NCBI GenBank assembly: GCA_964016885.1
Contig: OZ024759.1
Coordinates: 21,576,001-21,640,000, forward strand
Reading direction: 5' to 3'
From: Eledone cirrhosa
Taxonomy: Eukaryota
DNA length: 64,000 nucleotides
Part shown: positions 3,071 through 62,988 of the stretch, piece after piece
Layout: each line of letters starts with the position of its first letter
Position numbering within the stretch: the stretch's first letter is position 1
Made by a program: the position numbers and the translations under genes
Notes under the pieces: model-generated
Told to the model about the DNA's origin: nothing
What the model saw: only the letters and a program-made list of their open reading frames with translations
Database searches by the model: none

Positions 3071-3210
3071 CATCATTTTACGATCGTTTCTAGGATATAT
3101 ATGTGTTAGAATTGGTATGCATATTCTATAGATCTATGTACAATATTTATACAAACTATCAGAGGGAATATACATACCTACACATATATATGCTGTCTTC
3201 AGAAATAATG
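3071..3210 (-). ncRNA. Type I hammerhead ribozyme with 105-nt stem II, sense within LAP intron 1
   Basis: Minus strand reads CATTATTT-CTGAAGA-[C.A mismatch, then ATATATATGTGT/ACACATATATAT and GTATGTATATTC/GAATATGCATAC helices]-GAAAC-GATC-GTA-AAATGATG. This gives an 8-bp stem I, palindromic stem III ACGATCGT and a GUA cleavage triplet. Confidence 0.75.
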
Positions 3211-3356
3211 TCTTCAGAAATAATGTCTTCAGAATAATGTCTTCAGAAATAAGTAATATAAGTATGTATAACAGCCGTACTAAGAGTGAGAAATGAAATT
3301 TCGTTTCATTTTTTCCATTTATATATAAGTAGTTCCACAACAGTTAATACACCATT

Positions 3357-3400
3357 TCCAAGATCAATTTATTTCACCTCAAATGGATCATCAGCTTGGA
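3357..3400 (-). ncRNA. Minimal hammerhead, mutated copy (same family as 38690-38727)
   Basis: TCCAAG-CTGATGA-TCCATTTGAGGT-GAAA-TAAATT-GAT-CTTGGA. Stem I is 6 bp, but the triplet reads GAT (U16.1 lost). Confidence 0.55.
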
Positions 3401-4139
3401 TATGGTGTATTAACTGTTGTGGAACTATTTCTACCAAACTCGTCCCATGGATTGAGTGTTCTACTATTACGGATATAACCCACCAGTGTTCTACCACTAG
3501 ATATATGTATATATAAATATAGATATATGCATGTATGATACAACCATATAGTTATTTTCAACTTGTGTTATACATATGTATATATGCACACATACACACA
3601 CATATATTTCACCTGTCCGGCCTCCAGTCATTTTACCCTCTGATAATAAACTCCATTCCTGCATCACAAACAGGATTCAACATCAAAGATGGATTGAGTT
3701 ACATAATGTTGAGTGCTTTTCCTACATCATGGTTAACTATACTAAATGATCAGTTCTACCCAGTGGTGAACCACCGAACTTAAATGAATATATATAGTTA
3801 AAAACAGGGGTAAAATTCCATACAAATTGAGGATTCTAGGTAACAACTATGGTGAGGTAGAAAAGTGTATTTAGAGAATCTTTATCTTGAATCCAACAAA
3901 ACAAATATTTCTATATTTGATACATCAAATATATCTAAGTTTAATCGAATATTATTGATATCCATGGTTATATTATCAAATAATAATTACATTAATTTTC
4001 TTCTCATATTTGGTTAGAATTTTGAAGGTGAATGTTTATCCTATGGTCCTTGATGTGTTTTGAACAAATATAGCCTTTAAAGCTGTTGTAAATTACTCCT
4101 TTTCTGTTGTTCTCCTATCTTAGAATTCATAACACCCAT

Positions 4140-4570
4140 GTCAGGGATGCTGGAATAACCAAGTATCTCACCAGGATCATCACATCATACGTTGAGAAGA
4201 CTGGCTGATAGCGAGGCGAAGACGGCGGAATAACCAAGTACTCCCACTAGGAGCATTATCTCATATGTCGGGGAGACTGGCTGATAGTGAGGCTAAGATG
4301 CTGCTATAACCAAGTACCCTCACCAGGAGCATCACTTCATACATCGGCAGACCAGCTGATAGTGAGGCTAAGACTTTGGAATAACCAAGCACGCTCACCT
4401 GGAGTATCATTACATACATCGTCAGACAAGCTGATAGCGAGGATAAGACGGTGGAATAAACAAGTACTTTCACCAGGAGCATCATTTGATACATCGGCAG
4501 ACTGGCTGATAGTGAGGCTAAGATGCTGGAATAACCAAGCACGCTCACCTGGAGAATCCCTTGATACAGC
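4140..4570. repeat. 75-bp minisatellite, ~5.5 diverged copies, in LAP intron 1
   Basis: ACTGGCTGATAGTGAGGCTAAGATGCTGGAATAACCAAG... recurs every 75 bp, which explains the 25-aa periodic ORFs at 4261-4610. Confidence 0.85.
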
Positions 4571-5238
4571 GGCAAGGAGAGTCACCAACGTTTCGAAGGT
4601 CACACGTTGAAAAAAATTACCGGTAATTCCTGGAATTTGAGAATTTAATTCTGTGCCGGTACAGCTCCAGTGTCTTCCAATAAATTATATAAGACCGAGA
4701 AGCAAGTATTTAAAAAAAAAATTACAATACTTAAAGGACAGGAGATTAAGGAGCGAAAGTTAATCAATGACACCGTATAGCTGAATCGTATTACCTTTAA
4801 ACCGGGCACCAGATAATTTTAAGGAAATGTTAGTTTTAATTAAAGGTTTTTCAGTTGTGGCCGCCAGGACTTATGTATATAATTGTTAGAAATGAGTTTA
4901 CCCAGCTATGGGTTAAATAGCCTCACCAACTCGCTATTATCCAAGCGTGGTGAGTATGGCTACACCCCCTGACATGACCAAAACCAAAACAGAAAAGAAC
5001 GGTGGAGGTCAATTAGGGAGGCGTTCCTCCGGTAGGAATGAAAAGGCCCTGGATTGAATTGAATATTATACACGGTGATTTGAGGGAGATGTAGTTGCCA
5101 TTTCTAGCAGATCTAACGATGGCTTAGAGGTTCCTTCACATCATGCTATCAATTAAAACATTTCGACAAAGACTTTCTGTAGGTTGGTTTGTTTTTAAAA
5201 TTTTGTTGGGTTTAATAAATTACAGTCATAGTACTTAC

Positions 5239-5373
5239 GAGTTTAGCAGTAGCTGATAACTGGCGTCTATTTAAGGGGCGACCTTTAATAATAGAACCGT
5301 TGAGTAGAAACCATTGGGAGTGCTTTATTTCTTTTGTAACTCGTGCTGCCGTTCGCAGTAGCGAGGTAGCCAT
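5239..5373 (-). CDS. LAP3: M17 leucyl aminopeptidase (LAP3-like), coding exon 1; putative mitochondrial transit peptide
   Basis: ATG at 5373 gives MATSLLRTAARVTKEIKHSQWFLLNGSIIKGRPLNRRQLSATAKL (45 codons; Arg/Ser/Leu-rich, one acidic residue). It ends in phase 0 at CTC|GTAAGT, matching the phase-0 start of the next exon. Confidence 0.8.
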
Positions 5374-5500
5374 GTTTTAAGGTAGCTAAAGAGTTATTTC
5401 CCTTTGTAATTATGAAATCATGGATGTAGACTTTCGAAATAGGTACGTCTCGTCTTAACGGAAGTATAGCTTTCTTGAAACTTGTTTTCTATACGTTCCG
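5374..5500 (-). promoter_or_regulatory. Probable 5'UTR/proximal promoter of the LAP gene
   Basis: Unique, relatively CpG-containing sequence immediately upstream of the ATG, with an ETS-type ACGGAAGT at 5458-5465. Positional inference only. Confidence 0.3.
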
Positions 5501-60288: not shown

Positions 60289-60831
60289 AAGCTAGATAGA
60301 TAGATAAGCAGACATACAGACAGACAGATAGATAGATAGACATATAGCTAGATAGATATGTTTCTTTTATTTGCCACCAGGGCATCAAAAGTGGGACAAG
60401 TACAATGGGGGGAGTTTACAAAACAAGGCGTCCTCAATAAGGAGGAGGCAATAAGCAGACATACAGACAGACAGATAGATAGATAGACATCTAGATAGAT
60501 AGATAAGCAGACATACAGACAGATAGATAGATAGACATATAGCTAGATAGATAGATATATAGATAAGATAGATAGATAGGTAAATAGATCGAAAGATGTA
60601 TATATATATATAGAGAGAGAGAGAGAGAAAGAGAGAGAGTTAGAGATCAATACATAGAGCTATCGTTGGTGGAAACTATAGTAAAAAATGATGAAAGTAA
60701 AGGTTGACATCTTTGAATGACAATGAGATAGTTATAGGTAATAATAAGTACGTTTACACCTGTAATTAGCCATAGGTGAGGAAGTATTTTTACACCTGTA
60801 ATATATTCCTGTTAAGTGGGTGGTACGTTTG

Positions 60832-61857
60832 TATATATATATACATATATATATGTATATATATATATATATATATATATATATATATATATATATATAT
60901 ATATGTATATATATATATATATATATATGTATATATATATATATATGTATATATATATATATATATATATGTATATATATATATATATATATATGTATAT
61001 ATATATATATATATATATGTATATATATATATATATATATATATATATATATATATATATATATATATATATATATATATATATATATATATATATATAT
61101 ATATATATATATATATATATATATATATATATATATATATATATATATATATATATATATATATATATATATATATATATATATATATATATATATATAT
61201 ATATATATATATATATATATATATATATATATATATATATATATATATATATATATATATATATATATATATATATATATATATATATATATATATATAT
61301 ATATATATATATATATATATATATATATATATATATATATATATATATATATATATATATATATATATATATATATATATATATATATATATATATATAT
61401 ATATATATATATATATATATATATATATATATATATATATATATATATATATATATATATATATATATATATATATATATATATATATATATATATATAT
61501 ATATATATATATATATATATATATATATATATATATATATATATATATATATATATATATATATATATATATATATATATATATATATATATACATATAT
61601 ATATATATATATATATATGTATATATATATATATATATATATATATATATATATATATATATATATACATATATATATATATATATATATATATATATAT
61701 ATATATATATATATATATATATATATATATGTATATATATATATATATATATATATATATACATATATATATATATATATATATATATATATATGTATAT
61801 ATATATATATATATATATATATATATATATGTATATATATATATATATATATATATA
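60832..61857. repeat. ~1-kb (TA)n, largely perfect, ending at the assembly gap
   Basis: Direct reading. Confidence 0.95.
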
Positions 61858-62057
61858 NNNNNNNNNNNNNNNNNNNNNNNNNNNNNNNNNNNNNNNNNNN
61901 NNNNNNNNNNNNNNNNNNNNNNNNNNNNNNNNNNNNNNNNNNNNNNNNNNNNNNNNNNNNNNNNNNNNNNNNNNNNNNNNNNNNNNNNNNNNNNNNNNNN
62001 NNNNNNNNNNNNNNNNNNNNNNNNNNNNNNNNNNNNNNNNNNNNNNNNNNNNNNNNN
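61858..62057. other. Assembly gap (200 N)
   Basis: Run of N; the round size suggests a scaffolding placeholder. Confidence 0.99.
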
Positions 62058-62394
62058 CAAATTTTACGTGGGGACGGGAAGCTAAAAAGAATCAATCTTT
62101 TAGTTCCTGTCAGAAGCTCCCAGCCAACGTGTCTCACACGCAAATTATCAAGGGGTGAAAAGATGGCTATTAGAAATAGCAGTTCACATTGATATAAAAT
62201 AGAATGGTAACATTCGGTTCATGTCTCCAAGCCCCATGGCTAGAGGAAAGCGATGGTAACAATGGTAGTGCCAAGAAGCTTTAACGGACTTTAAATGCGA
62301 TCATATATATATAAATTATTCCGGGTTGAATCGGAGGTAACCACAGTAAGTAAGGTACTCAATACACAGCAGAGTATAAAAGTTTTAAAATAGA

Positions 62395-62496
62395 AGAGTT
62401 TCTACAGGACTAGAACTGTTTCATTCGTGAGAAATCATCAGGGAGCTCACTGATGATTTCTCACGAATGAAACAGTTCTAGTCCTGTAGAAGCTCT
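62395..62496. ncRNA. Back-to-back inverted hammerhead pair sharing a GAGCTC centre
   Basis: Both strands read GAGCTC(C/A)-CTGATGA-T-TTC-TCAC-GAA-T-GAAACAG-TTCTAGTC-CT-GTA-GAA(A/G)CTC. A related mutated copy lies at ~53543-53597. Confidence 0.7.
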
Positions 62497-62906
62497 ACTA
62501 TATTAAAACTTACGTCTCTTATATTATTGTTCTGCAACCCCATGCATTGAACCACAATGTTAAGACAAAACCTATATATTTGCTAGCATCGATATACATC
62601 TGTATGTATATATATGTTAGTAGATATAAATTCTTTATTATTATCTCCAAAATATTTGTCGAGCAATACTGGCCATGACTGCTGCTACGGTAGTAGGCTG
62701 GCCGCTGTCTTATTAACAACCCACTTTCCACCGATTGACCTCGATGTCACGTGTTCGATTCTCTTTGAATTTGCCACAGACACAGAGGCAGTGATTTTCT
62801 CAATGGCTAGGAGGTAAGTCCACGCTTTGCTATTTCCTATTCACTGATTTATTTTTTAATAAGCTTCCAGAGTCCTCGCTTTCCCTGGAAACTTATATGA
62901 GAATAG

Positions 62907-62988
62907 ACTTTCCTGATGACGGGATGTTTCTTTACACCTTCTTCGGAAGATGTATCTACTCCATTCCAGAAACTAATTAGTTGGAAGT
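62907..62988 (+). ncRNA. Type I hammerhead ribozyme with 49-nt stem II capped by C(UUCG)G
   Basis: ACTTTC-CTGATGA-C-GGGATG...TACA-C-CTTC-TTCG-GAAG-A-TGTA...CATTCC-A-GAAAC-TAATTA-GTT-GGAAGT, with palindromic stem III ACTAATTAGT. Confidence 0.85.

What the first reader, a model, noticed from the sequence alone, without database searches (positions are those of the whole stretch)
3071..62988. Hammerhead variants with greatly extended, structured stem II (49-105 nt) in five unrelated families
Seen: stem II regions of 105 nt (3071), 61 nt (7334), 84 nt (34482), 90 nt (39828) and 49 nt (62907), each closed by complementary ends and paired with a tiny palindromic stem III. Established: PLE-associated minimal HHRs typically have short stem II, and standard descriptors often cap helix/loop length, so these would likely be missed. 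Inference: the insert may be a docking module (RT binding or dimer stabilisation) or cargo.
Basis: partly seen in the sequence, partly recalled or inferred. Interest (0 to 1): 0.75.

Follow-up and report, generated by a model that had tools for sequence, protein, structure and literature searches.

The report
Oversized hammerhead ribozymes in Penelope retroelements
Five hammerhead self-cutting-RNA motifs sit at the ends of abundant Penelope-type jumping repeats, and their extra-long second arm is an inherited feature of each family, predicted to fold and likely serving as a docking module; cutting and function are untested.

Summary
All five motifs are real type I hammerheads with intact cores and palindromic loop III. 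Stem II spans 105, 61, 83 (not 84), 90 and 49 nt; a sixth (91 nt) was missed. The long arm is family-wide: 5,275 long against 11 short matches for families A and C together, and no short match for B. A and D end Hydra-clade Penelope-like elements (PLEs) whose RT cores are 49% identical, so the families are not all unrelated. B, C and E are PLE-type repeats with no ORF found. Helices of the arm covary between subfamilies. In the ~50-nt class an internal loop pairs with the flank 5' of stem I (covarying pseudoknot). Classes A, B and D share an unpaired 5'-A-N-U / 5'-A-G motif at different distances from the core, a candidate protein site. Tabulated animal PLE arms span about 26 nt at most, but one plant PLE of about 54 nt is in print, and Lünse 2017 could not be read. 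No expression or cleavage data. The scan noted long arms in this genome before. New variant of a known kind.

The parts
3016..3252 (-). Family A: 5'-truncated 3' end of a Hydra-clade PLE, next to (TA)n; four ~15-bp tandem copies of the stem I strand plus first core half at the truncation point (3194-3252)
3071..3210 (-). Hammerhead A: stem I 8 bp, core 3196-3202 and 3087-3090, stem II span 105 nt (3091-3195), loop III CGAUCG, predicted cut after 3079
3134..3157 (-). A-N-U (3157-3155) / A-G (3135-3134) internal-loop motif in the apical hairpin of A
7278..7472 (-). Family B: short PLE-type stub between (TA)n tracts; no ORF or autonomous partner found
7334..7425 (-). Hammerhead B: stem II span 61 nt (7352-7412), loop III CGCGCG; motif at 7397-7395 / 7365-7364; AAUAAA at 7325-7320
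12124..12265 (+). Sixth long hammerhead (12126-12235), stem II span 91 nt, loop III CACGUG; D class; truncated inside stem I; motif at 12164-12166 / 12193-12194
34333..34628 (-). Family C: 5'-truncated piece (with tail) of a ~850-nt terminally redundant repeat with no ORF found
34482..34592 (-). Hammerhead C: stem II span 83 nt (34498-34580), predicted three-way junction with two hairpins, loop III CUCGAG; window copy decayed at the base of stem II
39536..39999 (+). Family D: 5'-truncated 3' end of a young Hydra-clade PLE, in (TA)n
39828..39946 (+). Hammerhead D: stem II span 90 nt (39840-39929), loop III CAUAUG, weak stem I; motif at 39869-39871 / 39901-39902; AAUAAA at 39949
62508..63041 (+). 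Family E: one full ~522-nt retrozyme-like unit with short terminal redundancy; the same unit occurs in tandem elsewhere; no ORF found
62899..62988 (+). Hammerhead E: stem II span 49 nt (62920-62968) made of a 6-bp helix, pyrimidine-rich internal loop and UUCG-capped hairpin; predicted pseudoknot 62899-62903 with 62928-62932; loop III CUAAUUAG

Best explanation
These are type I hammerhead motifs at the 3' ends of Penelope-like retroelements and their likely non-coding parasites, and the long stem II is an inherited, covarying domain that likely works as a docking module: a predicted pseudoknot to the stem I flank in the ~50-nt class, and a conserved internal loop that would bind protein, most likely the element's RT, in the 60-105-nt classes A, B and D. 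Shown: intact cores, family-wide length, covarying helices between subfamilies, PLE anatomy, and Hydra-clade ORFs upstream of A and D. Inferred from published work on PLE hammerheads: two cores pair through the palindromic loop III and cut slowly, trimming tandem transcripts into units that the RT copies into (TA)n. Inferred here: loop II, which in hammerheads faces stem I, was elaborated. In class E it became an internal loop 6-7 bp from the core whose 5' strand pairs with the purine run before stem I, capped by a hairpin. In A, B and D it carries an A.G / bulged N / U.A loop whose distance from the core varies from about 12 to about 30 bp, which fits a free-standing recognition site better than a fixed contact with stem I. 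Class C has neither feature and is unexplained.
For: Long 5,275 against short 11 for the A/C pattern, and 0 short for B. Covariation above all 500 shuffles and all slid controls: E class 6 of 6 basal pairs change on both sides, D class 11 of 16 pairs, A class 5 of 15 pairs. Loop III stays palindromic through paired changes. Pseudoknot: own-flank score 13.1 against 10.3 for other flank types, 0 of 5,000 permutations; the 3' side of the loop shows nothing; a second test by duplex energy gave 1 of 5,000. Motif: U 20/20, A 20/20, G 20/20 in D, where only 5 of 80 insert columns are invariant; A 17/17, U 17/17, AG 16/17 in A; all 10/10 in B; middle base variable in A and D. Descriptor hits 35 of 40, 12 of 22 and 22 of 34 inserts against 7.0, 0.7 and 5.5 expected. 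D-class arms sit behind one endonuclease clade (100/98). A PLE hammerhead needing the element's protein to cleave is in print (PMC11167929, passages).
Against: No expression, cleavage, probing or binding data. Within young families, changes are uncompensated decay (0 double changes). Covariation counts are across related sequences, not independent events, and rows of the alignments were picked by me. The motif descriptor was drawn from these sequences. The motif is absent from C (1 of 14) and E (0 of 28), and other families of the same genome spread with 11-36-nt arms, so the domain is not required for PLE mobility. The B-class consensus fold did not recover the hammerhead. D has a weak stem I yet is very young. 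In PMC11167929 catalytic mutants of the hammerhead did not reduce insertion in vitro.
Confidence: 0.6

Rival explanations
1. Tolerated expansion: loop II accepts any folded insert, so arms lengthened by slippage and fold-back, and selection only keeps the basal helix closed. The conserved loop letters are a relic of shared descent.
For: Lengths form a near continuum, 11 to 107 nt. Apical parts vary freely. Short-arm families thrive. At least one deletion copy of A lies behind a PLE endonuclease (L350).
Against: Unpaired letters are more conserved than the helices around them in D across elements whose proteins are about 40-65% identical; the same loop recurs in A and B, whose inserts do not align; the E pseudoknot covaries.
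Confidence: 0.22
2. The arm is purely a ribozyme-activating (or braking) tertiary domain in all classes; the A-N-U/A-G loop docks on RNA (stem I, or the partner of the dimer), not on protein.
For: Stem I / loop II contacts are the known role of this region (PMC3088659, passages) and fit class E. Weak excess pairing of 5' flanks with inserts in D and A (70 and 64 of 5,000).
Against: Variable distance of the motif from the core; no specific pairing of 3' flanks with inserts; apical loops not self-complementary.
Confidence: 0.13
3. The invariant AG is the 3' splice acceptor of a pLTR intron, so that splicing shortens stem II.
For: PLE pLTRs hold introns overlapping the hammerhead (PMC4209133, part 2). 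In D the AG is preceded by a pyrimidine in 19 of 20 rows and many rows have a GT about 48 nt upstream.
Against: B has GAG; the GT column pairs with AC and changes with it and is absent in 5 of 20 rows; no polypyrimidine tract; the A-N-U opposite the AG is equally conserved.
Confidence: 0.05

Closest known systems
Hammerheads of Hydra-clade Penelope-like elements (Craig et al. 2021, PMC8557442; section 11, passages, supplementary files S1 and S2 read)
   Same: C-terminal GIY-YIG, DKT, CxCX5C, CxxC/CxH, (TA)n targets; type I hammerhead near the 3' end, often with an extra unpaired base on both sides of stem II
   Different: Tabulated Hydra stem II spans are about 11-25 nt; here 49-105 nt with covarying sub-domains; loop III here is a perfect 6- or 8-nt palindrome
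PLE-X1_sMoe hammerhead of a spike moss (same paper, File S2, flagged as deviating)
   Same: PLE hammerhead with a 9-bp stem II and 35-nt loop 2, about 54 nt in all
   Different: Single plant element, not analysed; here tens of thousands of animal copies, up to twice as long, with covariation
Minimal and palindromic-helix-III hammerheads of metazoan PLEs (Cervera and De la Peña 2014, PMC4209133; parts 1-2 of 4 and supplement part 2 read)
   Same: pLTR location, palindromic helix III, extra nucleotide after A9, 'larger than usual' helix II, predicted dimers
   Different: Helix II 7-8 bp; descriptor limited to about 26 nt; no peripheral domain described
Pseudoknot-stabilised hammerheads (Perreault et al. 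2011, PMC3088659; passages)
   Same: Base pairing between loop II and nucleotides flanking stem I
   Different: In class E loop II is an internal loop capped by a further hairpin, combined with a palindromic loop III
Animal non-LTR retrozymes (Cervera and De la Peña 2020, PMC7229834, passages; Li et al. 2026 preprint 10.64898/2026.07.22.740005, part 1 of 5 and passages)
   Same: Non-coding tandem units with one type I hammerhead each, derived from or mobilised by PLEs (families E and probably C)
   Different: Units of about 520 and 850 nt against about 220-390 nt in the passages read; oversized hammerhead; circular RNA not shown here
Bulged-G / loop E / sarcin-ricin-type internal loop (recalled, from no call)
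   Same: 5'-A-G-U opposite a purine strand, with a possible U.A pair and a bulged base
   Different: Opposite strand is A-G rather than G-A-A and the bulged base varies, so the resemblance is loose and untested

Membership tests
Type I hammerhead ribozyme | Core CUGANGA ... GAAA ... UH in type I order | tested here: met
   5 of 5 window motifs; core intact in 22, 28, 30, 30, 30 of 30 best copies of B, A, C, D, E
Type I hammerhead ribozyme | Stem II closes on the core | tested here: met
   Covarying basal helix, usually after one mismatch; window copy of C decayed
Type I hammerhead ribozyme | Stem I flanks the cut site | tested here: inconclusive
   Met for A, B, C, E (covariation in E class); D has only 1 bp, or 4 bp with a bulge
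Type I hammerhead ribozyme | Self-cleavage | not testable with these tools
   No assay; breakpoints near the cut site too few to judge
Type I hammerhead ribozyme | Match to an Rfam hammerhead model | tested here: not met
   No hit at gathering score or E<=10, for long and short motifs alike
Dimer-acting PLE hammerheads | Palindromic, very short stem/loop III | tested here: met
   All six motifs; 98.6% of cells paired with paired changes in the E class. Dimer itself untested
Hydra-clade PLE (families A, D) | RT followed by C-terminal GIY-YIG; CxCX5C linker; CxxC and CxH near the end | tested here: met
   ORFs collinear with the hammerhead in several copies; motifs read by eye against PMC8557442 section 11; Pfam gave no hit
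Hydra-clade PLE (families A, D) | DKT in place of DKG | tested here: inconclusive
   Present in A (L154); that region of D was not recovered
Hydra-clade PLE (families A, D) | Placement in an RT tree with reference PLEs | not tested
   Tree holds only endonuclease fragments from this genome
PLE-mobilised insertions (all five) | Fixed 3' end, optional tail, 5' truncation, inverted 5' copies, (TA)n targets | tested here: met
Non-LTR retrozyme (E, C) | Non-coding tandem units with one hammerhead each | tested here: inconclusive
   Met for E (522-nt tandem); C shows terminal redundancy only
Non-LTR retrozyme (E, C) | Expressed circular RNA | not testable with these tools
   No RNA holder listed
Naiad PLE | N-terminal endonuclease | tested here: not met
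   Endonuclease is C-terminal in A and D

The most novel reading that the evidence does not exclude
The A.G / N / U.A internal loop shared by three classes is the RNA handle by which Hydra-clade Penelope RTs recognise their template, built into the hammerhead arm so that binding couples self-cleavage to reverse transcription. It would be a defined RT-binding motif for telomerase's sister group, and long-arm hammerheads would be a large class missed by capped descriptors in other invertebrate genomes.
Probability: 0.2. Interest if true: 0.8.

Novelty: new variant of a known kind. Interest (0 to 1): 0.5.

Why it matters
The role of PLE hammerheads is an open question, and one is known to cleave only with the element's protein present. 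This genome offers tens of thousands of copies and many subfamilies whose natural variation points at two small, mutable features: a pseudoknot and a five-letter internal loop. That makes protein-assisted cleavage and template recognition directly testable. It also shows that descriptor-based hammerhead counts in animals miss a sizeable share (11 of 48 motifs in an unbiased sample had arms of 41 nt or more).

Tried and rejected
Locus-specific inserts: rejected for A, B, C; for D and E no genome-wide short-form search was run (one search found no short form among fetched loci but had almost no cases). Naiad identity (my first reading of the ORF): rejected. Triple helix of ENE type in class E: considered by eye; the 3' loop strand shows no family-specific pairing (3,141 of 5,000) and does not track the purine strand. 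Pairing of the 3' flank with the insert (7-8 bp in D and two relatives): no excess over cross pairs. Motif relocated to the flanks in short-arm families: hits in flanks had no control and were not interpreted. Breakpoints at the cut site: a few, loci biased, inconclusive. Rfam: only spurious miRNA-type hits. Pfam: nothing. Metagenome scan for the D class: 79 matches examined, 4 passed a loose filter, none folded like D, taken as chance. Repeat finder swamped by (TA)n. Autonomous partners of B, C, E: none found within fetched flanks; no dedicated genome search. Lünse et al. 2017 and Arkhipova et al. 2017 were not held and may describe longer arms; file 1 of the Cervera supplement was not searchable; preprint supplements are closed.
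Full report
Observation. A stricter version gives 9 motifs in the window and none in 30 shuffles; in 86 arbitrarily placed 10-kb stretches of the 3-Gb genome (88 asked, 2 did not exist) it gives 48 motifs, 11 with arms of 41 nt or more, against 0-1 in five shuffles. The inserts of A, D, E and the sixth motif fold better than shuffles (z -2.5 to -5.5); the window copies of B and C do not.

Each motif is a high-copy repeat. DNA searches gave 629 to 2,486 first-look candidates per family, 40 scored each. Those hits are biased towards the query, so I also anchored patterns on the core and 3' flank. 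One pattern covering A and C has 5,275 matches with spans of 78-108 nt and 11 with spans of 5-35 nt, several of them plain deletions of A. B has no short match. Broader patterns give 15,258 matches for 46-56-nt arms (control 344) and 9,585 for 72-100-nt arms with one loop III type (control 11). D and E were not tested for short forms genome-wide.

What carries them. Copies share a fixed 3' end a few tens of bases after the cut site, an optional tail, variable 5' truncation, inverted 5' copies and (TA)n flanks, the PLE anatomy described in PMC8557442 (passages). Longer copies of A and D run into an RT followed by a C-terminal GIY-YIG domain with a CxCX5C linker and CxxC/CxH motifs, and DKT in A. 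These are the marks of the Hydra clade (section 11), matched by eye; Pfam gave no hit. The RT cores of A and D are 49% identical over 227 residues. E is a 522-nt unit found in tandem, and the window holds one full unit. C is a unit of about 850 nt with terminal redundancy. B is usually a stub under 300 nt. I found no ORF for B, C or E in the fetched flanks. In a tree of 18 endonuclease fragments, those upstream of D-class arms (82-91 nt) form one group (100/98), and A-class ones a weaker group (85/91); two rows are probably linked to the wrong hammerhead by nested insertion, and one D-class row (79 nt) falls outside. The long arm is therefore inherited with the element.

Structure. Within the 30 best copies of each family, changes are decay and none is compensated. 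Between subfamilies the helices covary. Class E (28 rows: of 31 non-redundant rows I dropped 2 non-members and 4 with replaced 5' flanks, swapped one for the window copy and added 3): 90.6% of cells paired, 18 of 20 pairs with double changes, above all 500 shuffles on covariation score. Class D (20 rows picked by eye): 87.5%, 11 of 16 pairs. Class A (17 rows): 94.4%, 5 of 15 pairs, middle helix not counted because of misalignment. These counts reflect related sequences and are not probabilities. The automatic consensus for class B (10 rows) did not recover the hammerhead; C has too little variation.

Class E pseudoknot. The arm is a 6-7-bp helix, a pyrimidine-rich internal loop and a capping hairpin. 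The purine run 5' of stem I (GAGAAU, GAGAAG, GGAAAA or GAAAAG by subfamily) is complementary to the 5' strand of that loop in the same subfamily: mean score 13.1 with its own loop, 10.3 with loops of other flank types, reached by 0 of 5,000 permutations; the 3' strand shows no such signal. A duplex-energy test agrees (1 of 5,000). The window copy keeps 5 bp with one G-U; two rows of one subfamily do not fit best with their own loop. This is the known stem I / loop II pseudoknot (PMC3088659, passages) in an internal-loop form.

Shared internal loop in A, B and D. In three separate alignments an unpaired A-N-U faces an unpaired A-G next to a helix. In D the U, A and G are invariant in 20 of 20 rows while only 5 of 80 insert columns are invariant; in A the A and U are in 17 of 17 and AG in 16 of 17; in B all are in 10 of 10; the middle base varies in A and D. 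A descriptor finds it in 35 of 40, 12 of 22 and 22 of 34 inserts binned by length, against 7.0, 0.7 and 5.5 expected from shuffles, but in 1 of 14 C inserts and 0 of 28 E inserts. The descriptor was drawn from these sequences. The inserts themselves do not align across classes. The loop lies about 12 bp from the core in B, about 20 in D and about 30 in A (read from the folds). It loosely recalls a loop E or bulged-G motif; that label is from memory and untested.

Mechanism. Most likely the cores cut as dimers through the palindromic loop III, as argued for PLE hammerheads (PMC4209133; PMC6765202, passages), processing tandem transcripts. The long arm adds a docking surface: RNA-RNA in E, probably RNA-protein in A, B and D. 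A PLE hammerhead that cleaves only with the element's protein is described in PMC11167929 (passages), which also reports that cleavage was not needed for insertion in vitro. Against a required role: families with 11-36-nt arms are at least as common here (37 of 48), and D is very young despite a weak stem I.

Novelty. The 2014 descriptor allows about 26 nt, and the tabulated animal examples I saw fall within that range. Craig's File S2 lists one spike-moss PLE with about 54 nt, flagged as deviating. Searches found no description of long-arm animal PLE hammerheads, but two key papers were not held. Rfam misses both long and short motifs here. Earlier notes of this scan report long arms in this genome; they are leads, not support. 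One pointed me to File S2, others to the breakpoint and flank tests.

Verdict. Real, family-wide and structured; a new variant of the known PLE hammerhead, with two specific and testable sub-features and no functional data. Interest 0.5.

Noticed in passing
window 62403-62488: Inverted pair of short hammerheads (12-nt arm, longer stem III) forming a palindrome just upstream of family E
   Followed up: no
window 38694-38723 (-), 50604-50632 (-), 8046-8090 (-): Short-arm hammerheads (11, 12 and 26 nt) of other families; the 26-31-nt class and class A share a C.C mismatch near the base of stem II
   Followed up: partly
window 7320-7325 (-), 12236-12241, 39949-39954; many rows of alignment A2: AAUAAA lies 0-20 nt after the predicted cut in B, D and relatives, overlapping stem I in the 91-nt family; cleavage would separate the transcript from a poly(A) signal
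   Followed up: no
L084:1890, L008, L280, L281, L288, L299, L300, L347: A 93-97-nt class with a covarying three-way junction in stem II and a possible pseudoknot between the 5' flank and the junction; lacks the A-N-U/A-G loop
   Followed up: partly
window 39828-39832 and 39910-39917 with 39942-39949: Family D has a very weak stem I, and its stem I 3' strand can pair over 8 bp with a segment inside the arm in the family sequence; a possible off-state, not supported as a general feature
   Followed up: partly
window 12844, 20746 (+), 39172 (-): Further CUGANGA cores preceded by a similar U-rich flank that my descriptor did not close into a type I fold; possibly decayed or differently wired hammerheads
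   Followed up: no
L153:8061-8999 (-): Open frame resembling an amine G-protein-coupled receptor (by eye) a few kb from a family D insertion
   Followed up: no
L082, L085, L097: Fragments of a different PLE type (GIY-YIG with YIGET motif) in flanks
   Followed up: no
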